This document shows, in pieces, positions 7,439-25,312 of a DNA stretch of 34,141 nucleotides. Each line of letters opens with the position of its first letter. The first letter of the stretch is position 1. The DNA lies in assembly GCA_035403765.1 (NCBI GenBank), contig DAONFU010000005.1:1-34141 (forward strand), read 5' to 3'. The position numbers were made by a program, and so were the translations under genes. The notes beneath the pieces were generated by a model. That model worked only from the letters and a program-made list of their open reading frames with translations, did not search any database and was not told the DNA's origin. This DNA comes from Bacteroidales bacterium. GTDB taxonomy: Bacteria; Bacteroidota; Bacteroidia; Bacteroidales; CAIWKO01.

Positions 7439-7921
7439 TCACTGATTTGATTTTGCCCATGCGAGGTTGTTTTTTGCCAACTGAAAATCAGGGTCTATTT
7501 TCAAGGCTTTTTCGCAGGCTTCCGCACCTTTATCATACATTTTCATGGCATTGTAAGCCGAGCAGATATTATTGTAGGCTGTGGCATTCTGTGGATTCAG
7601 TTCCAGCGCTTTTTGACTTGCCTGGATGCACTCTTTGAACATATTATTATTATAATATTCCATGCTTAAATTAATGTAATTGCTTTCGGAAGGCCGTGCT
7701 TTAGCCAGGTCTATTGCTGATTGTAATTTTTCTGCGGGGGAGAACGCCGTATTGTTATCAACATTGGCTGAATCGTGCACGGGGGCCGAGAGATCCTTAT
7801 TTCGGATAAAGTAATTCCAATATACAAGATACAACATGGGAAGAATTATTAAAACCGCGATAATCCATTTGGTGGATTTCAGTTTTGTGTCAGATTGCTT
7901 GCTGTTTACTGGTTTGCTCAT
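7439..7921 (-). CDS. Membrane-anchored TPR repeat protein
   Basis: ATG at 7919-7921. One N-terminal TM (WIIAVLIILPMLYLVYW) is followed by two TPR units (NYINLSMEYYNNNMFKECIQASQKALELNPQNATAYNNICSAYNAMKMYDKGAEACEKALKIDPDFQLAKNNLAWAK). The C-terminal module is paralogous to the C-terminus of 9044..11149. Confidence 0.8.
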   Translation of the reverse strand: MSKPVNSKQSDTKLKSTKWIIAVLIILPMLYLVYWNYFIRNKDLSAPVHDSANVDNNTAFSPAEKLQSAIDLAKARPSESNYINLSMEYYNNNMFKECIQASQKALELNPQNATAYNNICSAYNAMKMYDKGAEACEKALKIDPDFQLAKNNLAWAKSNQ

Positions 7922-9060: not shown

Positions 9061-11149
9061 AGAAAAATTGTATTTTAATCTGACTTGTCTCATACTGCTG
9101 ACGGGCCTTATTATCACGTATTCCAACCATTTTAACAACTCTTTTCATTTTGATGACGATCATGCCATAGTGAATAATATATGGATCAAAGACATCAAAA
9201 ATATTCCCAAATTTTTTACGGATGCCACCACATTCTCCATTCTTCCTCAAAACCAATCGTACCGGCCAGGAACAGTAACATTATCAGCTATTGATTTCTG
9301 GATTTCAAAACACAATCCTCTTGGCGTTAAAAAAAACGAATTGTATCAGGATGAAGGGCTCAATCCATTTTACTTTCACTTATCAATCTTTATCGCCTTT
9401 ATTTTACAGGCGCTCCTGATGTTTCTTTTTTTTAAAAAAATCCTTGATAACACGATAAAACATAAGTGGGACGATTATTTCGCCTTATTTATTACGGCAT
9501 GGTATTGCTATCATACGGCAATCGCTGAAACTGTTAATTATATTTGCGCCCGGACAGATGGCTTTTCTACCCTTTTGATACTTTTTGCGTTTGTGATTTA
9601 TGCTTATTTTCCCCGCAAAAGAAAGTACGGGTTCTTTCTCATTCCTTATATAGCAGGTTTTTTAGTCAAAGAACCCTCCATCATGTTTGGGCCTTTATTG
9701 TTCTTTTACATTTTGCTCATTGAGAAAAAAGCAGACCTGACCACACTTTTTAAAAAGGAAACCTTCGGCAAGGCGCTGCAGTCTTTAAAGGCTGTTGCCG
9801 TTACATTGATCATAGCGATATTTCTTTATGGCTTGTCAATTTATATGAGGCCGGACACATTTTCCCCGAGTTCACACTCAACACTGAGTTATTTGATCAC
9901 ACAGCCATTCGTATATGTCCATTATTTTATGACATTTATTTTACCCGCCAATTTGTCTGCTGATTCTGACTGGAGGCCACTGAGCACTATCTTCGATATT
10001 CGTCTGCTGATGGGATTAATGTTTATTGCCGGAATGATATGGTTTGCGATACGGATATCAAAAAACAAGGCGCTCCTTCCTGTTTCTTTCGGCATCTTCT
10101 GGTTTTTTCTTGCTCTTGCCCCGTCTTCCAGTTTTATTGCTCTTTCGGAGGTATTGAACGATCATAGGATATATTTTCCATACGTGGGACTGGTGCTTGC
10201 ATTCTCGGTCATGTTGATATACCTGCTCATTTTAAAAGATGAAAAAAGATTTTTGAACTCTATTTACCTAAGAGTATTTACAGGTGTACTCGTTTTTGGG
10301 TTGATATGCGGACATGCTTACGGCACTCATCAACGGAATAAAGTTTGGAAGACAGAAGAAACTTTATGGTATGATGTTACCGTAAAAAGCCCCGGAAATG
10401 GCCGCGGTCTTATGAACTACGGGTTGACACAGATGAGTAAGGGAAATTACCCCGTTGCTAAAAAATATTTTGAAAAAGGACTTAAACTTCAGCCTGGCTA
10501 TCCCCTTTTGTTTATTAACCTTGGCATTCTTAATGCGGCCATGGGAAACCCTGCGGAAGCCGAAAACTATTATAAAAGAGCGGTAGCCATAAACCTGTAT
10601 CAAGATGAAAGTTATAGTTATTATGGCGAATTCCTTTATAGCCAAAAACGCTATGATGAAGCAAAAGCTTGTCTGAAAAATGCCCTGAACAAAAACTCTT
10701 CCAATATGCAGGCACGATTTGCTTTAATGGCTTTGTATTACGACACAGAAGACTGGGGAGCACTTTCAAGAATTGCCGAAGAAACCCTGCAATACTTACC
10801 GAATGATGCGAAATGCCTGGCATATATCGACGCTTCTAAGAACAAAAAAACCAAACTCGATGTAGCTATTGAAACAGCGAAAAATAGTCCGACATCAGAT
10901 AATTATATTAATTTAAGCTTACATTATTACGAAGCAGGCATGTATGCCGAATGTATCACTGCCTGCGAAGAAGCGCTTAAAATCAATCCGGATAACGCCA
11001 TTGCCTATAACAACATCTGCTCCGCATATAATGCCCTCAAAATGTATGACAAGGCCATCGCAGCCTGTAACAAAGCTCTTGAAATTGATCCCGTGCATAA
11101 TTTTGCAAAAGGCAATCTGAATTACGCTAAGGAACAACTAAACAAATAA
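9044..11149 (+). CDS. TMTC-like GT-C fold glycosyltransferase candidate: polytopic membrane domain plus C-terminal TPR array
   Basis: 701 aa. The first loop carries SFHFDDDHAIVNNIWIKD, comparable to the FxxDDxxAIxxN loop-1 acidic motif of TMTC O-mannosyltransferases. Many hydrophobic segments span residues ~10-430. From ~440 onward there are multiple TPR units (GLMNYGLTQMSKGNYPVAKKYFEKGLKLQPGY...AYNNICSAYNALKMYDKAIAACNKALEIDP). Confidence 0.6.
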   Translation: MKTWFKEKLYFNLTCLILLTGLIITYSNHFNNSFHFDDDHAIVNNIWIKDIKNIPKFFTDATTFSILPQNQSYRPGTVTLSAIDFWISKHNPLGVKKNELYQDEGLNPFYFHLSIFIAFILQALLMFLFFKKILDNTIKHKWDDYFALFITAWYCYHTAIAETVNYICARTDGFSTLLILFAFVIYAYFPRKRKYGFFLIPYIAGFLVKEPSIMFGPLLFFYILLIEKKADLTTLFKKETFGKALQSLKAVAVTLIIAIFLYGLSIYMRPDTFSPSSHSTLSYLITQPFVYVHYFMTFILPANLSADSDWRPLSTIFDIRLLMGLMFIAGMIWFAIRISKNKALLPVSFGIFWFFLALAPSSSFIALSEVLNDHRIYFPYVGLVLAFSVMLIYLLILKDEKRFLNSIYLRVFTGVLVFGLICGHAYGTHQRNKVWKTEETLWYDVTVKSPGNGRGLMNYGLTQMSKGNYPVAKKYFEKGLKLQPGYPLLFINLGILNAAMGNPAEAENYYKRAVAINLYQDESYSYYGEFLYSQKRYDEAKACLKNALNKNSSNMQARFALMALYYDTEDWGALSRIAEETLQYLPNDAKCLAYIDASKNKKTKLDVAIETAKNSPTSDNYINLSLHYYEAGMYAECITACEEALKINPDNAIAYNNICSAYNALKMYDKAIAACNKALEIDPVHNFAKGNLNYAKEQLNK

Positions 11150-11645: not shown

Positions 11646-12399
11646 TCAAAAATGAAAAATGCAAAAGAAAATATTATTATTAAAGACGCCCGGGTGCATA
11701 AAATGTTCTTGCCTGGTATCAATGTCATAAGGATGGAAATACCCAAGCACGGGATTCCCCTTTTTCCAGCATCTTTTTATGGACCATCGGGTGAAAAAAA
11801 TGGCAGAAGCCTCATGTAAATACCACCTGCGATAGGGAAGGAGATCAATTTTGATTTGTACAAGGTCATGGGCAATTCCCATATCTTATTATCAATAAGC
11901 TTCACTATCCTGCCAAATTCCGGCCAGCCATATAACACGCTTTTTGTCGGAAAAACAGAGCTGGAATAAACAAAATTTAATTCTTCGAGTATTTCATAGG
12001 CCCAGGCTGTTTTTTCTATGATCGAAAAATTAGGTGCACGGAATCCGTAAATTTTTTCTACTCCGGCATCATGTAAGCATTCATGCTTTTGATCACCTCT
12101 TCTTTAAAAATTTTCGGATTTTGTTTATCAAGCTGAATATGAACGTTTGAATGACTGGCGACCTCATGCCCGTTTTCCGCAATTTTCCGTATCAAACCGG
12201 GATATGCCCTTGCCACATCACCTACCACAAAAAAGGTTGCCTTACAATTATGTTCTTCCAGGAAAGCAAGATATTTTTCGGCCATCAGGGGAAGCCTTTC
12301 CTGATACTTTAAACCATCTTCCATCCAGAATCTCACATCTTCCAGGTCAACAGCGAAAAGATAAATTTTTTTCACCGCTGGGTTAATATCCGTGGGCAT
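11646..12399 (-). pseudogene. Polysaccharide deacetylase (NodB domain plus DUF3473-like C-terminus), disrupted by at least two frameshifts
   Basis: Frame 1 (12399..12058) reads FAVDLEDV...KATFFVVGDVA...GHEVASHSNVH. The reading continues in a second frame as KHECLHDAGVEKIYGFRAPNFSI...ELPMTLYKSKLISFPIAGGIYMRLLPFF. A third frame (11882..11646) reads TRWSIKRCWKKGNPVLGYFHPYDIDTRQE. The shifts coincide with homopolymers at 12087..12090 and 11794..11800. Confidence 0.7.
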
Positions 12400-12510: not shown

Positions 12511-12626
12511 ATAAATATTAGTGAAAATATTTCCGGCTGTAAGGAAAAACCGGAAAAATACATTTACCCTATTATTCTTTTTTGCATATTAACATCAGTA
12601 TCTTAAAAAATGCAATAAGTCAGCCT

Positions 12627-12713
12627 GCAGAAGCCTGCGAAAAAGCCCTGAAAATAAATGCAAATTACGAACTGGCAAAAAATAATTTAGCCTGGGCAAA
12701 ATCAAATCTGTAA
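12627..12713 (+). pseudogene. 3'-terminal remnant of a TPR gene (last ~28 codons only)
   Basis: It translates to AEACEKALKINANYELAKNNLAWAKSNL*, against GAEACEKALKIDPDFQLAKNNLAWAKSNQ* at the C-terminus of 7439..7921. There is no upstream TPR body or start codon. Confidence 0.6.
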
Positions 12714-12865: not shown

Positions 12866-12873
12866 TAATTTTG
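12866..12873 (+). promoter_or_regulatory. Candidate -7 promoter box (TAATTTTG) upstream of gatE
   Basis: Matches TAnnTTTG and lies 26 nt upstream of the ATG at 12899. Confidence 0.3.
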
Positions 12874-12898: not shown

Positions 12899-14872
12899 AT
12901 GAAAGAAAATTTCGATCCAAAGCTAAACTACGAGGAAACTAAAAAAGCCATTGGATACACGCCGTTGAAACAGGCAACACACGAAGACTGGAACCGCATA
13001 GGCTTTATGTCGGGACTGGAAGTTCATCAGCAACTTAAAACCAAAGAAAAACTTTTTTGCCATTGTCCGGCAGGGGTGTACCAGAAAAAAAATCAGTACG
13101 ATGCCGAACTGCTAAGGCATATGCGCCCAACACTCAGCGAACTGGGCGAATACGACGGCACCGCCCTGATGGAGTTTAAAACACGCAAAGAAATTGTGTA
13201 CCGCGTAAAAAACGAAACCACCTGCACTTACGACGTGGACGATACGCCTCCATTTAAACTTAACCGGGAAGCCCTCGAAAACGCCTTGGAAGTAGCCTTG
13301 CTCAGCAAATTGAATATTGTGGGCGAAGTCCACATCACGAGAAAACAATACCTTGACGGAAGTATTCCCACAGGATTTCAGCGAACGGCGATATTGGGCG
13401 TGGAAGGCGAACTACCCTTGAAAACAAAAAAAATCAGGTTGATACAACTCAGTATCGAAGAAGATTCCTGTCGTGAAATTTCCGATATCGGCCACCGCCG
13501 TATCTATTCCACCGACCGCCTCGGTGTGCCTTTAATAGAAACCGTTACCTATCCGGATATGATAAATCCTTATGAGGTAAAAGAAGCCTGCGACTATATC
13601 CGTTTTTTAAACCGCAGCACCGGCAAGGTAAGAACAGGCATCGGCGCCGGCAGACAAGACGTGAACGTTAGCTGTAAAGGCGGTACCCGTATTGAAATTA
13701 AAGGTGTGGCGCATACACGGTGGATACCAAAGCTCACTCATAATGAATGTTTCAGACAATGGGCCTTGTTACATATCCGCGAAATTTTAAACGAAAAATT
13801 CGGAGACGGCTCTTCGTGGAAGATGAATTATCAGGAAGTGCAACTCAAAGATTTTCATTTTTCGAACCTGCCGCTCAACGAAGAAAAAAAGAATTCTTAT
13901 AAATATTATGCCATCAACCTTCCCGGCTTCAAAACACTGCTATCGCATTTCACCCAGCCAGGAAAAACGTTTGCCGACGAAATCAGCGAACGCCTGAAAG
14001 TGATTGCCTGTATTGAGTTGCCCAATATGACCCACTCGGAAGAATTTGAGCCCTTGATAAGCGGCGATGATTTCTCAAATATCCGCACCTCACTAAAAGC
14101 CAAAGAAGACGACGCACAGATTATTCTCTGGGGCCCGGAAGACGATATGAAAACCGCACTGGAAACGATAGAAGAGCGCTGCCAGTGGGCTTTCAAAGGC
14201 GTGCCTAACGAAACCCGCAAATCATTCGAAAACGGCACCACCATTTTTGAACGCGTATTGCCCGGCGCCGACCGTATGTATCCTGATACCGATTCCGTCC
14301 CCATCCCTTTAGAAGACGAATATATCAACCGTTTGAAGAAAAACCTGCCCACCGAAGTCATCGAAAGGTACCAGAAACTTAAAGAATGGGGCGTGCCTGA
14401 AGATACTTATACCTACATATTTAAGAAAAATCTCTTTCCGGTAATTGAAAAAATTATCAGTGTAAACGGTTACAAACCCAAATTTGTAGGTTCTTTTATC
14501 GGACACACCTTAAAATATTTTGAAGGGCAACACACTATATCCCCATACTTTAATTATGAAATGATAGGAGATATGTTTGCTTTCATAAACGAAAAGAAAC
14601 TGGATAAACAGATTGCCAAAAAAATGCTGCCCATCCTGATACAACATCCAAAAATGGATTTTGAATCAATTCTGGCCACGATAAAATTCAAAAAGGTTAC
14701 CAAAGAAGAGATTCTTTCCAATATCCCTTTCATGAAAGAAAAATTCCGTCAGATACGCATTTCGCAACAACCCGATGTGGAAACCAAATGGATAATGGGC
14801 GGTTTGCGCAAAATGGCTACCGGCAACATTTGTCTGGCCGAGTTAAAAGAATTAGTTGAAACCAGTAATTAA
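12899..14872 (+). CDS. gatE: Glutamyl-tRNA(Gln) amidotransferase subunit E (archaeal-type GatE)
   Basis: 657 aa. The N-terminus GFMSGLEVHQQLKTKEKLFCHCP matches the GatE GLEIHQQL..KLFC signature, whereas GatB has HVQL. It also has DRLGVPLIETVTYPDM, an insertion domain, a C-terminal helical tail, and an adjacent GatD partner. Confidence 0.8.
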   Translation: MKENFDPKLNYEETKKAIGYTPLKQATHEDWNRIGFMSGLEVHQQLKTKEKLFCHCPAGVYQKKNQYDAELLRHMRPTLSELGEYDGTALMEFKTRKEIVYRVKNETTCTYDVDDTPPFKLNREALENALEVALLSKLNIVGEVHITRKQYLDGSIPTGFQRTAILGVEGELPLKTKKIRLIQLSIEEDSCREISDIGHRRIYSTDRLGVPLIETVTYPDMINPYEVKEACDYIRFLNRSTGKVRTGIGAGRQDVNVSCKGGTRIEIKGVAHTRWIPKLTHNECFRQWALLHIREILNEKFGDGSSWKMNYQEVQLKDFHFSNLPLNEEKKNSYKYYAINLPGFKTLLSHFTQPGKTFADEISERLKVIACIELPNMTHSEEFEPLISGDDFSNIRTSLKAKEDDAQIILWGPEDDMKTALETIEERCQWAFKGVPNETRKSFENGTTIFERVLPGADRMYPDTDSVPIPLEDEYINRLKKNLPTEVIERYQKLKEWGVPEDTYTYIFKKNLFPVIEKIISVNGYKPKFVGSFIGHTLKYFEGQHTISPYFNYEMIGDMFAFINEKKLDKQIAKKMLPILIQHPKMDFESILATIKFKKVTKEEILSNIPFMKEKFRQIRISQQPDVETKWIMGGLRKMATGNICLAELKELVETSN

Positions 14873-14892
14873 AAGCTAAAAATTATACTACC

Positions 14893-16281
14893 ATGAGCGA
14901 AGATTTTTTTCAGGGATATAAAGGTGATGCACTTGAAATATTAAAAAAATACGCCGTCCGTGTCTGGGGTCAGGCCGAAGTGGACACTACCCGCGGCTTG
15001 TTTAAAGGAACCGTGTTGCCCCGCGCCGAAAATGATGACGATAAACACATAGTCCTCAAAGTAATTACCGGTTATAACATCGGGGTTGACATCAGCACCA
15101 TCCTGACGATGAAAGAAGTTGGTTATAAAAAGGCAAATTACAAAATACCCGAAAAAGAGTTCCCCTATACGCCCGGAAAGCCCAAGGTAAAGCTGATAGG
15201 CACCGGCGGGACCATAGCCTCGCGTCTCGACTACCGTACCGGCGCCGTGATTCCTGCCTTTTCGCCTGGAGAACTTTATGGCGCTGTGCCCGAACTGGCT
15301 GATATCTGCAATCTGGAAACCGAAAAACTTTTCGCAGTATTCAGCGAAAACATGGGGCCCGATCAATACAAAAAACTTGCCGTTGCCATAGGGCAGGAAA
15401 TTGAAAAAGGCACCGATGGTATTATTATAGGCCATGGCACGGATACCCTGCATTATACGGCTGCCGCGCTTACTTTTATGGTACAGAATCCGCCCATACC
15501 TATTGTGCTGGTTGGCTCACAGCGTTCCTCCGACCGGCCGAGCTCCGATGCCGCCCTCAACCTGATGCATGCCGCTACAGCAGCGGCTCATGGCGATATT
15601 GCCGAGGTAATGGTGTGTATGTTTGGGCCTACATCAGACGAATACGGGTTCTTGCATCGTGGCACCCGGGTGCGTAAAATGCATTCGTCTTACCGTTCTA
15701 CCTTCCGCACTATCGGAGATATTCCCGTGGCCACAGTAACACGTAATGGCGTGGTGCCACAAAAGCCCGTGTATAATCACCGCCGCAAGGATACTTCTAA
15801 TGTGAAAATCACACCCGTTTTCGAAGAAAAAGTGGGCATGTTGTATTATTACACCAATATGCAGCCCGATATGATTGACTCTATGGTTGATAATGGTTAT
15901 AAAGGCATTATCATCATCGGTACCGGACTGGGACATGTCAACAAACCTATATATCCGGCCATAGAACGTGCCGTGAAAAAAGGTGTAGCCATTTATATGA
16001 CAGTACAAACCTTGTGGGGCTATGTACATATGTTTGTTTACGACACAGGCCGCGACCTGATGGCCAAAGGCATTATCCCGGCAGAAAACATGCTGCCCGA
16101 AGTGGCCTATATTAAATTGGGATGGGCGCTTGGCCAAACCAACGACCTCGAAAAAGTAAAAGAAATAATGCTGACACCAATCAATGACGACATTACCCCG
16201 CGCGAACCTTACAACGGATACCTGATTTATCAGGGTGGCGTAAAAGAAATCGAAGATTTTATCAAAAAAGTACACAAATAA
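14893..16281 (+). CDS. gatD: Glutamyl-tRNA(Gln) amidotransferase subunit D (archaeal-type GatD, asparaginase-like)
   Basis: 462 aa. The N-terminal domain has DDKHIVLKVITGYNIGVDIS, which is GatD-specific. The type I asparaginase core carries the catalytic motifs GTGGTIASRLDYRTGAV and IIGHGTDTLHYTAAAL. It starts 20 nt after gatE. Confidence 0.8.
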   Translation: MSEDFFQGYKGDALEILKKYAVRVWGQAEVDTTRGLFKGTVLPRAENDDDKHIVLKVITGYNIGVDISTILTMKEVGYKKANYKIPEKEFPYTPGKPKVKLIGTGGTIASRLDYRTGAVIPAFSPGELYGAVPELADICNLETEKLFAVFSENMGPDQYKKLAVAIGQEIEKGTDGIIIGHGTDTLHYTAAALTFMVQNPPIPIVLVGSQRSSDRPSSDAALNLMHAATAAAHGDIAEVMVCMFGPTSDEYGFLHRGTRVRKMHSSYRSTFRTIGDIPVATVTRNGVVPQKPVYNHRRKDTSNVKITPVFEEKVGMLYYYTNMQPDMIDSMVDNGYKGIIIIGTGLGHVNKPIYPAIERAVKKGVAIYMTVQTLWGYVHMFVYDTGRDLMAKGIIPAENMLPEVAYIKLGWALGQTNDLEKVKEIMLTPINDDITPREPYNGYLIYQGGVKEIEDFIKKVHK

Positions 16282-16287
16282 AAAAAA

Positions 16288-16312
16288 GGGCTGAACTTCA
16301 GCCCTTTTTTTT
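16288..16312 (+). terminator. Rho-independent terminator after gatD
   Basis: gggctgaacttcagccc hairpin followed by a T8 run, beginning 7 nt after the gatD stop. Confidence 0.75.
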
Positions 16313-16387: not shown

Positions 16388-16505
16388 CACTTTCCACTTT
16401 CTACTTTCCACTTTCCACTTTCCACTTGCCACTTGCCACTTGCCGCTTGCTACTTGCTACTTTCCACTTTCTACTTGCAACTTTCTACTTTCCACTTTCC
16501 ATTTC
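16388..16505. repeat. Heptanucleotide tandem repeat, 16 full units plus one degenerate unit, consensus YACTTKC
   Basis: Unit-by-unit reading: cactttc x2, tactttc, cactttc x2, cacttgc x3, cgcttgc, tacttgc, tactttc, cactttc, tacttgc, aactttc, tactttc, cactttc, catttc. It abuts the stop codon (16504-16506) of the minus-strand guanylyltransferase gene. Confidence 0.95.
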
Positions 16506-17598
16506 AAATATATTGTTCCCCTTTTTCAATTTTGATTTTTACATCATTCACAAAATTGCGGATCTGCTGTTCGTCGTTTTTACGGCATATTAACAACACA
16601 TTCCCCGACTCCACCACAATGTAATCGTCGAGGCCCTGCAGCACTACCAGCTTGTCTTCGGGCATATTTACAATGCAGTTGTGGCTGTCGTACATAATTA
16701 CATCTTTGCCAACTATGGCATTGCCGGCTTCGTTTTTTTTGCGGTTTTCATATAAGGAGCCCCAGGTACCCAGGTCAGACCAGCCGAAATCAGAACACAG
16801 CACATATACATTATCAGCCTTTTCCATCACACCATAGTCGATAGAAATGCTTTTGCCAGTGGCGTAAGCGTGCTGAATAAATTCCGGTTCTTTTTCTGTA
16901 TTGTATATCCCCTTACCTTTTCCAAACGATTCGTTGATTTCGGGAAGATGCGTTTCAAAAGCTTGAAGAATACTTTTTATTGACCAGACGAAAATGCCCG
17001 AATTCCATAAGAAATCACCGCTTTCAATAAATTGCCGTGCCATTTCGAGCACGGGTTTTTCGGTAAAAGTTTTTACTTTTTTTAAGCGGGTATCTTCGGG
17101 GTAAGCATCCGTATCCTTGAATTGAATATAGCCATAACCCGTGTCGGGACGGCTTGGGGTAATACCCAGTGTCAGCAGCCAGTTATTTTTTGAGGCTGCC
17201 TGAAGTGCCGAGCTGATGATACCGGAAAAAGAATCTTCGTTAAGGATAATGTGGTCGGAAGGGGCTATTACCACATTGGCATCAGGGTCAGATTCATTGA
17301 TTTTATAACAGGCATAAGCAATACACGGTGCGGTATTTCTGCGGGCAGGCTCAGCAATTATCTGACGCGCTTCCAGAGAAGGTATTTGTTCCCTTACCAG
17401 GTCGGCATATTTTTCGTTAGTAACAATAAAAATGTTATCTTTCGGGATGATCTTTTCAAAACGCCTGAAAGTTTGCTGTATCAGCGTTTCTCCCGTGCCT
17501 AGAATATCAATGAATTGTTTGGGATGGGAAGTGCGGCTCAGGGGCCAGAAACGCGAACCTATGCCGCCCGCCATAATCACACAATAGTTACTGCTCAT
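16504..17598 (-). CDS. Mannose-1-phosphate guanylyltransferase (nucleotidyltransferase domain only, no PMI domain)
   Basis: N-terminus CVIMAGGIGSRFWPLSR..PKQF, which is the NTP-transferase G-rich loop. It also has IIAEPARRNTAPCIAYA, and its length and C-terminal beta-helix-like region are typical of ManC-type enzymes. Confidence 0.8.
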   Translation of the reverse strand: MSSNYCVIMAGGIGSRFWPLSRTSHPKQFIDILGTGETLIQQTFRRFEKIIPKDNIFIVTNEKYADLVREQIPSLEARQIIAEPARRNTAPCIAYACYKINESDPDANVVIAPSDHIILNEDSFSGIISSALQAASKNNWLLTLGITPSRPDTGYGYIQFKDTDAYPEDTRLKKVKTFTEKPVLEMARQFIESGDFLWNSGIFVWSIKSILQAFETHLPEINESFGKGKGIYNTEKEPEFIQHAYATGKSISIDYGVMEKADNVYVLCSDFGWSDLGTWGSLYENRKKNEAGNAIVGKDVIMYDSHNCIVNMPEDKLVVLQGLDDYIVVESGNVLLICRKNDEQQIRNFVNDVKIKIEKGEQYI

Positions 17599-23010: not shown

Positions 23011-23013
23011 CTG

Positions 23014-23086
23014 TCTCCTCGCGGGGACTCGAACCCCGGACCCATTGATTAAGAGTCAATTGCTCTACCAGCTGAGCTACGAAGAG
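23014..23086 (-). tRNA. tRNA-Lys (anticodon CTT)
   Basis: The reverse complement reads CTCTTCG TA GCTC AGCTGGTA GAGC A ATTGA CTCTTAA TCAAT GGGTC CGGGG TTCGAGT CCCCG CGAGGAG A. The cloverleaf folds by hand with a 7-bp acceptor stem (one G-U), a TTCGAGT T-loop and anticodon CTT. CCA is not encoded. Confidence 0.9.
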
Positions 23087-23803: not shown

Positions 23804-25312
23804 ATGAGCAAAGACAATTTCACAGAATTAAACCCCAATCCTTTGGTTGGGTTTCTCGACAAACCATCCAAAGATTTCACCAAAAACGATTTGATAAGGT
23901 TTGTCAAAGAAAACGGGATCAAAATGATTAATTTCAGGTATGTGGGTGGCGACAACCGCCTGAAAACCATGAATATCTGCATCAACAACCTCAAGCACCT
24001 CGACACCGTCTTGTCTACTGGTGAGCGGGTGGATGGTTCCAGCCTGTTCTCTTATATAGAAGCCGGTTCCAGCGACCTGTACGTGATACCGAGGTTCCGC
24101 TCAGCCTTTGTTGATCCTTTCAGCAGCATACCCACGTTAAACATATTATGTTCGTACTTCAACAAAGACGGCGAACCCCTCGCTTCTTCTCCGGAATATA
24201 TTCTGCACAAAGCACACAATGTGCTCAAAGAAAAAACCGGCCTTACCTTTGAAACCATGGGCGAACTGGAATATTACCTGATCAGCGAAAAAGATGACCT
24301 TTTCAGGGCCGGCGACCAAAGAGGTTACCATGAATCTTCACCATACAACAAATTCGAAGATTTCCGTACCGAAGCCCTGCAGGAAATTGTACGTTGCGGA
24401 GGCCTGGTAAAATATGCTCATTCCGAAGTGGGAAACTTTTCTATCGACAATTTGGATTACGAGCAGGACGAAATAGAATTTTTGCCTGTAGATGTTGAAG
24501 AAGCGGCTGACCAGCTGGTAATTGCCAAATGGGTTCTCCGGAACCTGGCCTATAAATACGGTGTCAGCATCACGTTTGCGCCGAAAATCACTGCCGGTAA
24601 GGCCGGTAGCGGTATGCACATACATACCCGCCTGATGAAAGACGGCCGTAATGTGATGGTGGACAATAACGGCATCAGCGACACAGCCAAAAAAGCCATT
24701 GCCGGCTATCTTACCCTGGCTCCATCGCTCACCGCTTTTGGAAACACCAACCCCACCTCCTATTTCCGCCTGGTACCTCATCAGGAAGCTCCTACCAACA
24801 TTTGCTGGGGCGACAGAAACCGTTCCGTGCTGGTCAGAGTGCCCCTGGGATGGTGTGGCGCCAACGACATGATAAAAAAGGCAAATCCCCTGGAAGATGT
24901 GCCTACCGACGATTTCACCGACAAACAAACCGTGGAATTCCGCTGTCCCGATGGCTCCGCCGATATCTACCTCCTGCTGGCAGGGCTCACCGTTGCCGCC
25001 CGTCATGGGTTCGAAATGGAAAACTCCCTGCAGTTTGCTAAAGACACCTATGTGGACGTCAATATTTTTTCAGAAGAATTTAAAGACAAATTGCACAAAC
25101 TCGACACCCTGCCGTTTTCATGCTGGGCATCAGCCGAAATGCTGGAAAAACAAGCCGACATTTACAAAAAGCACGGCGTCTTTTCACAGCAGATTATCGA
25201 CGGCATCGTCAACAACCTGAAAAAATTCAACGACCAAGACCTCCGCGCCCGTCTTAAAGACGACAAAGTAGGGATGCTGGACCTGGTAGAAAGATATTTT
25301 CATTGCGGATAA
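23804..25312 (+). CDS. glnA: Glutamine synthetase (about 500-aa form)
   Basis: The N-terminal beta-grasp region reads IKMINFRYVGGDNRLKT. The catalytic domain has ELEYYLI, HSEVGN..QDEIEF, GSGMHIHTRL, NPTSYFRLVP..EAP and WGDRNRSVLVRVP. Confidence 0.9.
   Translation: MSKDNFTELNPNPLVGFLDKPSKDFTKNDLIRFVKENGIKMINFRYVGGDNRLKTMNICINNLKHLDTVLSTGERVDGSSLFSYIEAGSSDLYVIPRFRSAFVDPFSSIPTLNILCSYFNKDGEPLASSPEYILHKAHNVLKEKTGLTFETMGELEYYLISEKDDLFRAGDQRGYHESSPYNKFEDFRTEALQEIVRCGGLVKYAHSEVGNFSIDNLDYEQDEIEFLPVDVEEAADQLVIAKWVLRNLAYKYGVSITFAPKITAGKAGSGMHIHTRLMKDGRNVMVDNNGISDTAKKAIAGYLTLAPSLTAFGNTNPTSYFRLVPHQEAPTNICWGDRNRSVLVRVPLGWCGANDMIKKANPLEDVPTDDFTDKQTVEFRCPDGSADIYLLLAGLTVAARHGFEMENSLQFAKDTYVDVNIFSEEFKDKLHKLDTLPFSCWASAEMLEKQADIYKKHGVFSQQIIDGIVNNLKKFNDQDLRARLKDDKVGMLDLVERYFHCG

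What the first reader, a model, noticed from the sequence alone, without database searches (positions are those of the whole stretch)
12899..16281. Intact archaeal-type gatE-gatD operon in a Bacteroidota-like chromosome
Seen in sequence: a 657-aa protein has the GatE-type N-terminus (GLEVHQQLKTKEKLFCHCP). Twenty nt downstream is a 462-aa protein with the GatD-specific N-domain (DDKHIVLKVITGYNIGVDIS) and asparaginase catalytic motifs (TGGTIAS, HGTDT). A strong terminator follows. Established knowledge: the heterodimeric GatDE Glu-tRNA(Gln) amidotransferase is regarded as an archaeal signature enzyme, whereas bacteria use GatCAB and/or GlnRS. Inference: this is either an archaea-to-bacteria transfer that now provides Gln-tRNA(Gln) formation, or a GatDE homologue recruited to another tRNA-dependent or amidation role. 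The flanking genes are typical bacterial envelope genes, and I see no sign of a chimeric junction in the sequence itself. It sits directly beside the repeat-bounded accessory segment.
Basis: partly seen in the sequence, partly recalled or inferred. Interest (0 to 1): 0.7.

Follow-up and report, generated by a model that had tools for sequence, protein, structure and literature searches.

The report
Bacterial-clade GatDE amidotransferase operon
This Bacteroidales chromosome carries an intact gatE-gatD operon for the tRNA-dependent enzyme that turns Glu-tRNA(Gln) into Gln-tRNA(Gln); reviews still call it archaea-only, yet it belongs to a large, old, purely bacterial branch of the family found in hundreds of uncultured species.

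Summary
gatE (12899-14872) and gatD (14893-16281) are separated by 20 nt and followed by a hairpin terminator. Both proteins exceed NCBIfam's curated GatE/GatD equivalog cut-offs and keep every catalytic residue. The GatE model matches the archaeal GatE crystal structures best.

The contig is not chimeric. The identical arrangement occurs on 13 independently assembled contigs, and codon usage is host-like. A Bacteroidota-type -7 promoter box precedes gatE.

The operon is not a one-off archaeal import. At least 585 GatE-encoding stretches exist in GTDB species genomes. The best 80 are nearly all Bacteroidota, and 71 of them have gatD adjacent. Relatives also occur in Calditrichia, KSB1, Latescibacteria, Aminicenantes, Desulfobacterota and CSSED10-310.

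These bacterial sequences form one clade, separated from all archaeal GatE in 200/200 NJ bootstraps. They lie nearest to the Asgard/TACK enzymes. The root is unresolved.

Databases already name these proteins GatD/GatE. Reviews up to 2022 still say GatDE is archaea-only, and I found no paper on bacterial GatDE.

The most likely function is Glu-tRNA(Gln) transamidation on a bacterial U1-A72 tRNA. I could not test whether GatDE replaces GlnRS, the usual Bacteroidetes route.

The parts
12866..12873 (+). Putative Bacteroidota-type -7 promoter box, TAATTTTG (consensus TAnnTTTG), 26 nt upstream of the gatE ATG
   Evidence: The sequence is shown. The motif alone is common in the window (53 matches against 40 expected). 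However, a TAnnTTTG box lies 15-60 nt upstream of gatE in 39 of 78 related Bacteroidota loci, mostly at 30-49 nt, against 1.4% of equal-sized control windows. Promoter function is inferred, not shown.
12899..14872 (+). gatE: the tRNA-binding kinase/amidotransferase subunit (657 aa). Mg2+ ligands are His43 (13025-13027), Glu187 (13457-13459) and Glu214 (13538-13540).
   Evidence: NF003107 scores 474 bits (cut-off 456) and TIGR00134 scores 405 bits (cut-off 320). The protein aligns over residues 30-605 with the archaeal GatE structures 2d6f_C and 1zq1_C. His43, Glu187 and Glu214 correspond to Mth His15, Glu157 and Glu184 and are invariant in 81 sequences. The AF2 model (pLDDT 78.9) best matches 1zq1_C and 2d6f_D (E about 1e-37, target TM 0.73-0.75), ahead of GatB.
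14873..14892 (+). 20-nt gatE-gatD spacer (aagctaaaaattatactacc)
   Evidence: In other bacterial phyla the two genes overlap or nearly abut (-14 to +7 nt), which is consistent with co-translation of a complex.
14893..16281 (+). gatD: the asparaginase-type glutaminase subunit (462 aa). Catalytic residues are Thr107 (15211-15213), Thr183/Asp184 (15439-15444) and Lys262 (15676-15678).
   Evidence: TIGR02153 scores 498 bits (cut-off 324) and NF003217 scores 495 bits (cut-off 310). Pfam finds GatD_N plus the asparaginase N and C domains. The protein aligns end to end with 1zq1_A and 2d6f_A. The catalytic residues correspond to Mth Thr101, Thr177, Asp178 and Lys254 by my mapping, consistent with the Thr nucleophile plus Thr-Lys-Asp triad described in PMC2330236, and they are invariant in 65 full-length sequences.
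16280..16312 (.). Bidirectional intrinsic-terminator-like hairpin: AAAAAAAAGGGCTGAA-CTT-CAGCCCTTTTTTTT
   Evidence: One search reports 15 pairs and a 3-nt loop, with T-runs on both strands. The hairpin sits between the convergent genes gatD and the ManC-like gene (16504-17598, - strand).

Best explanation
The operon encodes a functional heterodimeric GatDE tRNA-dependent amidotransferase. By analogy with the archaeal enzyme, it should assemble as an alpha2beta2 tetramer. It is native to this uncultured Bacteroidales lineage and belongs to a distinct bacterial clade of the family.

Proposed mechanism, by homology with the archaeal enzyme:
- GatE binds Glu-tRNA(Gln) through its cradle, insertion and YqeY-type tail domains.
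- GatE phosphorylates the gamma-carboxyl of the tRNA-bound glutamate with ATP/Mg2+ (ligands His43, Glu187, Glu214).
- GatD releases ammonia from Gln or Asn (Thr107 nucleophile; Thr183-Asp184-Lys262).
- The ammonia is channelled to GatE, which forms Gln-tRNA(Gln).

The substrate must be an ordinary Bacteroidota tRNA(Gln) with U1-A72 and A73, not the archaeal A1-U72 type. It would have to be mischarged by a non-discriminating GluRS.

What is shown: family identity, intact catalytic residues and fold, purifying conservation, bacterial context, native expression signals, and membership of a separate bacterial clade.

What is inferred: the enzymatic activity, the tRNA substrate, and that GatDE is the main route to Gln-tRNA(Gln) in this organism.
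For: - Both subunits exceed curated equivalog cut-offs, and the GatB models do not.
- Both subunits align over nearly their full length to the crystallised GatD and GatE.
- All seven catalytic residues checked in both subunits are invariant in 81 GatE and 65 GatD sequences. GatD is 73-99% and GatE 62-94% identical across 80 species-level loci, with no frameshifts.
- The AF2 model matches GatE structures better than GatB.
- gatE-gatD adjacency holds in 71 of 80 Bacteroidota loci and in five non-Bacteroidota clade members. gatD is the only universally linked neighbour.
- The same arrangement occurs on 13 independent contigs and on complete chromosomes.
- Codon usage equals that of the window's housekeeping genes, and a -7 promoter box is conserved.
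- The bacterial clade separates from the archaeal sequences in 200/200 bootstraps. GatD gives the same picture: 58-72% identity within bacteria against 37-51% to archaea.
- tRNA(Gln) genes in two GatDE-bearing loci have U1-A72.
Against: - No activity data exist for any bacterial GatDE.
- In one 2014 survey, 12 of 14 cultured Bacteroidetes used GlnRS with a discriminating GluRS and had no amidotransferase (PMC3927822). A GlnRS may therefore coexist here, and I could not inventory glnS, gatCAB or gltX in this genome.
- The tRNA(Gln) genes of GatDE-bearing relatives look like ordinary tRNA(Gln) from GlnRS-containing Bacteroidetes, so nothing in the tRNA argues for the indirect route.
- Archaeal GatDE uses A1-U72 as a recognition element, and that element is absent here.
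- GatE passes NF003107 by only 18 bits.
- Nine of 80 loci have gatE without an adjacent gatD.
Confidence: 0.7

Rival explanations
1. The enzyme is the same, but its role is auxiliary. The genome also encodes GlnRS, as cultured Bacteroidetes do. GatDE would then be a redundant or conditional second route, or a clean-up enzyme for Glu-tRNA(Gln) produced by an imperfectly discriminating GluRS.
For: Twelve of 14 cultured Bacteroidetes have GlnRS and no gatCAB. The tRNA(Gln) of GatDE-bearing relatives resembles the tRNA(Gln) of GlnRS-containing Bacteroidetes: U1-A72, G2-C71, A73 and a similar D-arm. Coexistence of GlnRS and an amidotransferase is documented for 68 bacterial genera (PMC4206432).
Against: Very strong purifying conservation across at least 80 species is unusual for a dispensable duplicate pathway. 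No co-occurrence data were obtainable.
Confidence: 0.2
2. The bacterial clade has shifted or broadened its substrate. It would amidate Asp-tRNA(Asn), or both Asp-tRNA(Asn) and Glu-tRNA(Gln), as bacterial GatCAB does. This is conceivable because bacterial tRNA(Asn) and tRNA(Gln) share the U1-A72 pair.
For: The bacterial clade is well separated from archaeal GatE (200/200) and must have changed its first-base-pair recognition. Bacterial GatCAB uses U1-A72 for both substrates. Bacterial GatE carries an N-terminal extension that archaeal GatE lacks.
Against: The GatE-specific insertion domain, which is modelled to clash with a non-discriminating AspRS, is retained. Archaeal GatDE is strictly a Glu-AdT. 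There is no positive evidence for Asp specificity.
Confidence: 0.07
3. The finding is an artefact or a very recent import: an archaeal fragment mis-assembled or mis-binned into a bacterial contig, or a recent lineage-specific transfer from an archaeon.
For: The family is described as archaea-only in reviews.
Against: Both junctions recur on 13 contigs from different samples and assemblers. Downstream synteny is shared with five other species, including a complete 4.86-Mb chromosome. Codon usage is host-like. A T9SS-sorted peptidase gene is inserted between gatE and gatD in L058. The nearest archaeal GatE is only about 38% identical, whereas hundreds of bacterial homologues are 62-99% identical.
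Confidence: 0.02

Closest known systems
Archaeal GatDE Glu-tRNA(Gln) amidotransferase (Methanothermobacter thermautotrophicus, PDB 2D6F; Pyrococcus abyssi, PDB 1ZQ1)
   Same: Same two-subunit composition. Same domain plan: GatD has the GatD_N domain plus an asparaginase core, and GatE has cradle, AspRS-like insertion, helical and YqeY tail domains. All catalytic residues are the same. Both subunits pass the curated GatD/GatE equivalog models, and these are the best structural matches.
   Different: The host is bacterial. The bacterial sequences form a separate clade (200/200 bootstraps). GatE is about 30-38% identical to archaeal GatE representatives (29-34% to the two crystal structures in the structural alignment) and GatD is about 45-46% identical to the crystallised enzymes. 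The N-terminal extension is longer: the catalytic His is at about position 43 against about 17. The gene order is fixed as gatE then gatD, whereas archaea vary. The cognate tRNA(Gln) has U1-A72 rather than the A1-U72 recognised by the archaeal enzyme.
Bacterial GatCAB amidotransferase
   Same: It catalyses the same overall reaction. GatB is the paralogue of GatE: it shares the cradle domain, the Mg2+ ligands and the YqeY tail. It acts on U1-A72 tRNAs.
   Different: The glutaminase here is an asparaginase-type GatD, not the amidase GatA, and there is no GatC. GatB models score at most 129 bits against cut-offs of at least 315. GatE has an insertion domain that GatB lacks.
Type I L-asparaginase (TIGR00519 subfamily)
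   Same: The GatD core is a type I asparaginase fold with the Thr/Thr-Asp-Lys catalytic set. TIGR00519 scores 376 bits (cut-off 260.5).
   Different: The GatD-specific models score higher (498 bits). The protein carries the GatD_N domain and is encoded next to gatE in 71 of 80 loci.
GlnRS direct pathway of cultured Bacteroidetes
   Same: It yields the same end product, Gln-tRNA(Gln), and uses the same kind of tRNA(Gln): U1-A72, A73 and a similar D-arm.
   Different: It is an unrelated class I synthetase that needs no mischarged intermediate. Whether it coexists with GatDE in this genome is unknown.

Membership tests
GatDE (Glu-tRNA(Gln) amidotransferase, heterodimeric) | The GatE subunit matches curated GatE equivalog models above their cut-offs and scores better than GatB | tested here: met
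   NF003107 scores 474.1 bits (cut-off 456) and TIGR00134 scores 404.7 bits (cut-off 319.55). The best GatB model scores 129 bits (cut-off 338).
GatDE (Glu-tRNA(Gln) amidotransferase, heterodimeric) | The GatD subunit matches curated GatD equivalog models above their cut-offs and carries the GatD-specific N-terminal domain | tested here: met
   TIGR02153 scores 497.7 bits (cut-off 324) and NF003217 scores 494.7 bits (cut-off 310). PF18195 GatD_N scores 41.1 bits (cut-off 25.7).
GatDE (Glu-tRNA(Gln) amidotransferase, heterodimeric) | GatE kinase-site Mg2+ ligands (Mth His15, Glu157, Glu184) | tested here: met
   His43, Glu187 and Glu214 are present in the window protein and invariant in 81 sequences.
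GatDE (Glu-tRNA(Gln) amidotransferase, heterodimeric) | GatD glutaminase residues: Thr nucleophile plus Thr-Asp-Lys triad | tested here: met
   Thr107, Thr183, Asp184 and Lys262 are invariant in 65 full-length sequences.
GatDE (Glu-tRNA(Gln) amidotransferase, heterodimeric) | GatE four-domain architecture, including the AspRS-like insertion and the YqeY-type tail | tested here: met
   NF003107 is matched over positions 4-623 of 630. The AF2 model's best matches are 1zq1_C and 2d6f (target TM 0.72-0.75), with weak local matches to AspRS and to the GlnRS N-terminal tRNA-binding domain. Pfam GatB_Yqey scores only 23 bits against a cut-off of 27.
GatDE (Glu-tRNA(Gln) amidotransferase, heterodimeric) | The two subunits are co-encoded or co-occur | tested here: met
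   The genes are 20 nt apart in the window. They are adjacent in 71 of 80 Bacteroidota loci and in L081 and L083-L086.
GatDE (Glu-tRNA(Gln) amidotransferase, heterodimeric) | Formation of the alpha2beta2 complex with an ammonia channel | not testable with these tools
   No multimer prediction or biochemistry was available.
GatDE (Glu-tRNA(Gln) amidotransferase, heterodimeric) | Transamidation of Glu-tRNA(Gln) but not Asp-tRNA(Asn) | not testable with these tools
   This requires an in vitro assay.
GatDE (Glu-tRNA(Gln) amidotransferase, heterodimeric) | Recognition of the archaeal A1-U72 pair of tRNA(Gln) | tested here: not met
   The tRNA(Gln) genes in two GatDE-bearing Bacteroidota loci (L010, L058) start with U1 and pair with A72, with A73 as discriminator. 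The window's own tRNA(Gln) was not available.
GatDE (Glu-tRNA(Gln) amidotransferase, heterodimeric) | Restriction to Archaea ('archaeal signature protein'). This is a distributional statement, not a biochemical one. | tested here: not met
   The context is bacterial in the window and in at least 85 loci.
GatDE (Glu-tRNA(Gln) amidotransferase, heterodimeric) | The host lacks GlnRS and has a non-discriminating GluRS, the usual context of the indirect pathway | not testable with these tools
The Arg358 proxy applied to the one available GluRS (L076) was uninformative.
GatCAB subunit B (GatB) | Score above the GatB equivalog cut-offs, no insertion domain, and gatA/gatC as partners | tested here: not met
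   GatB models score at most 129 bits against cut-offs of at least 315. The partner gene is an asparaginase-type gatD. No amidase signature (GGSS.GS) was found in any ORF of at least 100 aa in the window or the 80 loci.

The most novel reading that the evidence does not exclude
GatDE is not an archaeal signature enzyme. An ancient, monophyletic bacterial GatDE clade lies nearest to the Asgard/TACK enzymes. In this reading it is the sole route to Gln-tRNA(Gln), with no GlnRS and no GatCAB, in hundreds of uncultured species of Bacteroidota, Calditrichota, KSB1, Latescibacterota, Aminicenantes, Desulfobacterota and other phyla. It would have switched its acceptor-stem recognition from A1-U72 to U1-A72 and might serve tRNA(Asn) as well. 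This would reopen the question of whether GatDE was present in LUCA or crossed the domain boundary early.
Probability: 0.3. Interest if true: 0.75.

Novelty: new member of a known kind. Interest (0 to 1): 0.55.

Why it matters
Reviews from 2008 to 2022 treat GatDE as an archaea-specific 'signature' enzyme. They build scenarios for the origin of glutamine coding on that distribution: co-evolution of GatDE with archaeal tRNA(Gln), the absence of GlnRS from archaea, and the complement of amidotransferases in LUCA.

A deep, diverse bacterial clade contradicts that premise. Its catalytic machinery is intact, its gene order is conserved, and it carries native bacterial expression signals.

It also provides a natural experiment. 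The same enzyme family must here read a U1-A72 tRNA(Gln) instead of an A1-U72 tRNA(Gln).

Finally, it raises a concrete and testable question. In a phylum whose cultured members use GlnRS, do these lineages use GatDE instead of GlnRS or GatCAB?

For this window alone the finding is ordinary within its lineage, and databases already annotate it automatically. The interest lies in the clade, not in this one locus.

Tried and rejected
(1) GluRS discrimination proxy. The one GluRS found near gatED (L076, 2895-4367, - strand; gltX_bact, 503 bits) aligns Arg to T. thermophilus Arg358, the 'discriminating' residue. Borrelia GluRS (4gri) also aligns Arg there. To my knowledge Borrelia depends on the indirect pathway. 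PMC3927822 notes that the rule is phylum-specific. I dropped this test as uninformative.

(2) tRNA(Gln) identity elements as a proxy for absence of GlnRS. The tRNAs in L010 and L058 have A3-U70 and C3-G70 respectively, with A73. The paper's main text says G3-C70 is absolutely conserved where GlnRS is present. Its own Additional file 7 shows that GlnRS-containing Bacteroidetes have U3 or C3, an A as the last listed base (discriminator position), and a similar D-arm. No inference is possible.

(3) Search for a conserved third partner gene. Only gatD is universally linked. All other neighbours are specific to subclades, each found in at most 13 of 81 sequences (80 loci plus the window). No tRNA gene is consistently nearby.

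(4) Sigma-70 promoter scan. This is not meaningful for Bacteroidota. I replaced it with the comparative TAnnTTTG test.

(5) Rooting the GatE tree with three GatB segments over 322 columns. The root was unresolved: the bacterial clade was monophyletic in 137/200 replicates and the archaea in only 14/200. I therefore make no claim about the direction or date of any inter-domain transfer.

(6) Whole-genome inventory of glnS, gatCAB and asnS in carrier genomes.

(7) Six literature searches. None found a report of bacterial GatDE.

(8) Compositional anomaly. There is none.


Full report
**Observation**

- An ORF at 12899..14872 (+, 657 aa) carries GLEVHQQLKTKEKLFCHCP.
- An ORF at 14893..16281 (+, 462 aa) carries DDKHIVLKVITGYNIGVDIS, TGGTIAS and HGTDT.
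- The spacer is 20 nt.
- A 15-bp hairpin flanked by A8/T8 at 16280-16312 overlaps the gatD stop codon. It can act as a bidirectional terminator between gatD and the convergent ManC-like gene.

**Family assignment**

Against NCBIfam, the first protein scores 474.1 bits on the GatE equivalog NF003107 (cut-off 456) and 404.7 bits on TIGR00134 (cut-off 319.55). Every GatB model stays at or below 129 bits against cut-offs of at least 315.

The second protein scores 497.7 bits on the GatD equivalog TIGR02153 (cut-off 324) and 494.7 bits on NF003217 (cut-off 310). It also matches the generic type I asparaginase subfamily, but with a lower score.

Pfam finds GatB_N, a weak GatB_Yqey match, GatD_N and both asparaginase domains.

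Both proteins align over nearly their full length with the crystallised archaeal subunits: 2d6f and 1zq1 give E 3e-84 and 1e-82 for GatE, and E 3e-112 and 3e-116 for GatD.

The review PMC2330236 gives the Mg2+ ligands of M. thermautotrophicus GatE as His15, Glu157 and Glu184. [quoted passage not shown] In my mapping these correspond to GatE His43, Glu187 and Glu214 and to GatD Thr107, Thr183, Asp184 and Lys262. All are invariant in 81 GatE and 65 full-length GatD sequences from related loci.

An AlphaFold2 model of GatE (pLDDT 78.9, pTM 0.75) finds the two archaeal GatE structures as its best PDB matches (E about 1e-37, target TM 0.72-0.75). GatB follows at E about 1e-21 or weaker. Weak local matches to AspRS and to the GlnRS N-terminal tRNA-binding domain fit the insertion and tail domains.

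**Is the host really a bacterium, and is the contig sound?**

The window's other genes are bacterial housekeeping and envelope genes: RecQ, MutS2, Pgk, MlaE/MlaF, MqnP, a ManC-like nucleotidyltransferase, TPR proteins and a PorE-family T9SS/OmpA protein.

Several results exclude a chimeric contig.
- The exact GatD protein is encoded on 13 contigs from different samples and assemblers (ENA, NCBI, JGI, Logan). All show the same genes on both sides.
- The downstream junction (gatD, ManC-like, MlaEF and onward) is shared at 70-85% DNA identity with five other species, including the complete 4.86-Mb chromosome OY782882.1.
- GC, GC3 and codon usage of gatE and gatD are indistinguishable from the window's housekeeping genes.
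- A Bacteroidota-type -7 box (TAATTTTG, 12866-12873) lies 26 nt upstream of gatE. The motif alone is common. Comparatively, though, a TAnnTTTG box sits 15-60 nt upstream of gatE in 39 of 78 related loci, against 1.4% of control windows.
- In L058 a peptidase gene with a T9SS C-terminal sorting domain has been inserted between gatE and gatD.

Chimerism, mis-binning and recent import are therefore excluded.

**Distribution**

GatD has more than 120 clusters (at the 90% identity level) that are 83-99% identical to the window protein. NCBI names them 'GatD [Bacteroidales/Bacteroidota bacterium]', and JGI also names them glutamyl-tRNA(Gln) amidotransferase subunit D.

The best 80 (62-94% identity) are almost all Bacteroidales or Bacteroidota MAGs and include three complete chromosomes.

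gatD follows gatE in 71 of these 80 loci. Apart from gatD, no neighbour is conserved beyond subclades. Neighbours include bacterial ValRS, LeuRS and GluRS.

An exhaustive HMMER search of 1.84 billion cluster representatives gave 609 clusters at E<=1e-30. There is a clear step in the scores: about 45 clusters at 42-61% identity, then the bulk at 30-38%.

A neighbour-joining tree splits these into two clades, A and B.
- Clade A contains the window protein. Its named members are all bacterial: Deltaproteobacteria and CSSED10-310, and Calditrichia, KSB1, Latescibacteria, Aminicenantes, Desulfaltia and a Clostridiales MAG.
- Four unnamed members of clade A sit in plainly bacterial contexts. These include a sigma-54 activator with HPr kinase and PTS genes; FtsEX with LexA and DnaK; a hybrid histidine kinase on a 2.9-Mb contig; and MurC/MurD with MraZ, RsmH and Lnt. 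Each has gatE followed by gatD, overlapping or nearly abutting.
- One member (L085) is ambiguous.
- Named members of clade B are all archaeal: Heimdall-, Thor-, Hel- and Lokiarchaeota/Promethearchaeota, Bathyarchaeia, Verstraetearchaeota, Thermoprotei, Parvarchaeota and Diapherotrites. Their contexts are archaeal (PolD, Pelota, archaeal ribosomal proteins), and their gene order varies.

**Phylogeny**

In a bootstrapped NJ analysis over 617 columns, the bacterial clade separates from all archaeal sequences in 200/200 replicates. The Bacteroidota subclade is recovered in 200/200 replicates. An Asgard/TACK grade lies next to the bacterial clade in 175/200 replicates.

With three GatB segments as outgroup (322 columns) the root is unresolved. 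The bacterial clade is monophyletic in 137/200 replicates and the archaea in only 14/200.

Mean distance within the bacterial clade (1.01) is close to that within the sampled archaeal set (1.11). The archaeal sample is truncated to the best-scoring clusters, so its spread is underestimated.

GatD agrees with GatE. Bacterial GatDs from different phyla are 58-72% identical to one another but only 37-51% identical to archaeal ones, with Heimdallarchaeota the closest at 50%.

The operon is therefore not a recent archaeal import into this lineage. It is a member of an old bacterial branch of the family. Whether that branch descends from an ancient transfer near Asgard/TACK or from an earlier split cannot be decided here.

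**Function**

The best-supported reading is a working Glu-tRNA(Gln) amidotransferase. Its mechanism would follow the archaeal enzyme: GatE acts as kinase and amidotransferase, GatD as glutaminase, and ammonia is channelled between them.

The substrate has to differ from the archaeal one. Archaeal GatDE reads A1-U72 and the D-loop. The two tRNA(Gln) genes I found in GatDE-bearing Bacteroidota loci have U1-A72 and A73. They look like the ordinary tRNA(Gln) of GlnRS-containing Bacteroidetes listed in Additional file 7 of PMC3927822.

That paper also reports that 12 of 14 cultured Bacteroidetes use GlnRS with a discriminating GluRS and have no gatCAB. An amidotransferase is therefore not the phylum's default.

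The key open question is whether GatDE replaces GlnRS in these uncultured lineages or coexists with it. Two proxies failed: GluRS Arg358 and the tRNA identity elements. For this reason I put 0.7 on 'functional GatDE acting on Glu-tRNA(Gln)' and keep an auxiliary-role rival at 0.2 and a shifted or dual-substrate rival at 0.07.

**Novelty**

Reviews from 2008, 2021 and 2022 state that GatDE is found only in archaea. Six full-text searches found no paper on bacterial GatDE.

Annotation pipelines, however, already label these proteins GatD/GatE, and within its lineage this locus is ordinary.

I classify it as a new member of a known kind. It is a bona fide GatDE from a bacterial subfamily that is not discussed in any paper I could find. 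Interest is moderate (0.55). It would rise if the genome inventories show that GatDE is the sole route to Gln-tRNA(Gln) in these phyla.

Noticed in passing
window 11646-12399 (- strand): A polysaccharide deacetylase gene is broken into three ORF fragments: DUF3473 (78 aa), Polysacc_deac_1 (113 aa) and a 44-aa piece. Five of the eight listed independent contigs show the same three fragments and two more show the deacetylase fragment, so this looks like a fixed pseudogene rather than an assembly error.
   Followed up: partly
window 12626-12713, 7441-7526 and 10961-10997: The 'repeat' that bounds the upstream variable segment is TPR-coding homology. The stretch 12626-12713 is a 3' remnant of a TPR gene. 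It is 78% identical to 10961-10997 and forms an 86-nt, 79% inverted match with the end of the TPR gene at 7439-7921. L001 differs from the window between about 4627 and 12627.
   Followed up: partly
window 23804-25312; L089 3066-4343: A glutamine-synthetase-like gene (GlnA model 237 bits, below the cut-off of 429) recurs within 10 kb of gatE in 10 of the 81 sequences examined (the window included). In the Parvarchaeota locus L089 a glnA gene lies directly upstream of gatD. This could be a link to amide-donor supply or could be coincidence.
   Followed up: no
L008, L010, L012, L014, L015, L020, L035, L037, L042: Nine Bacteroidota loci have gatE but no gatD within reach. They include the complete chromosome OY781965.2 (L042), where a CNNM/CorC-like gene and a PpiD-like gene follow gatE. 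gatD may be elsewhere in these genomes or lost.
   Followed up: partly
L058 11922-13223; L067 gap of 1329 nt: A gene for an M28-like peptidase with a T9SS C-terminal sorting domain is inserted between gatE and gatD in L058. L067 has a gap of similar size between the two genes.
   Followed up: partly
L010 3193-3264 (-); L058 21142-21215 (-): These are tRNA-Gln(UUG) and tRNA-Gln(CUG) genes in GatDE-bearing genomes. Both have U1-A72, G2-C71, a variable 3-70 pair (A-U and C-G), A73 and a compact D-loop. The same pattern is seen in GlnRS-containing cultured Bacteroidetes. The main-text claim of PMC3927822 that G3-C70 is absolutely conserved does not hold for the Bacteroidetes in its own Additional file 7.
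   Followed up: yes
L085 (contig NODE_384, 153.7 kb): This member of the bacterial GatE/GatD clade has GatD 63-68% identical to bacterial GatDs. Its neighbours (archease, two four-subunit POR clusters, a PAS-DUF835 protein) do not settle whether the host is bacterial or archaeal.
   Followed up: no
L026, L032, L038, L053, L057, L061, L065; P0076, P0085: Contigs titled Thiohalospira, Ignavibacteriaceae/Ignavibacteriales, Eubacteriales and Aminicenantes carry GatE 63-67% identical to the window's. Proteins named Syntrophothermus and TA06 are GatD 85% identical to the window's. All fall among Bacteroidota sequences. They are probably mis-binned or mis-named MAG contigs, or else reflect recent transfers within bacteria.
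   Followed up: no
window 12899-13024 (GatE residues 1-42): Bacterial GatE carries an N-terminal extension. The catalytic His is at about position 43 in Bacteroidota, about 30 in other bacterial clade members and about 17 in archaeal GatE. AF2 predicts a helix at residues 7-17.
   Followed up: partly
window 23013-23086 (- strand): tRNA-Lys(CUU) is the only RNA gene found in the window.
   Followed up: yes
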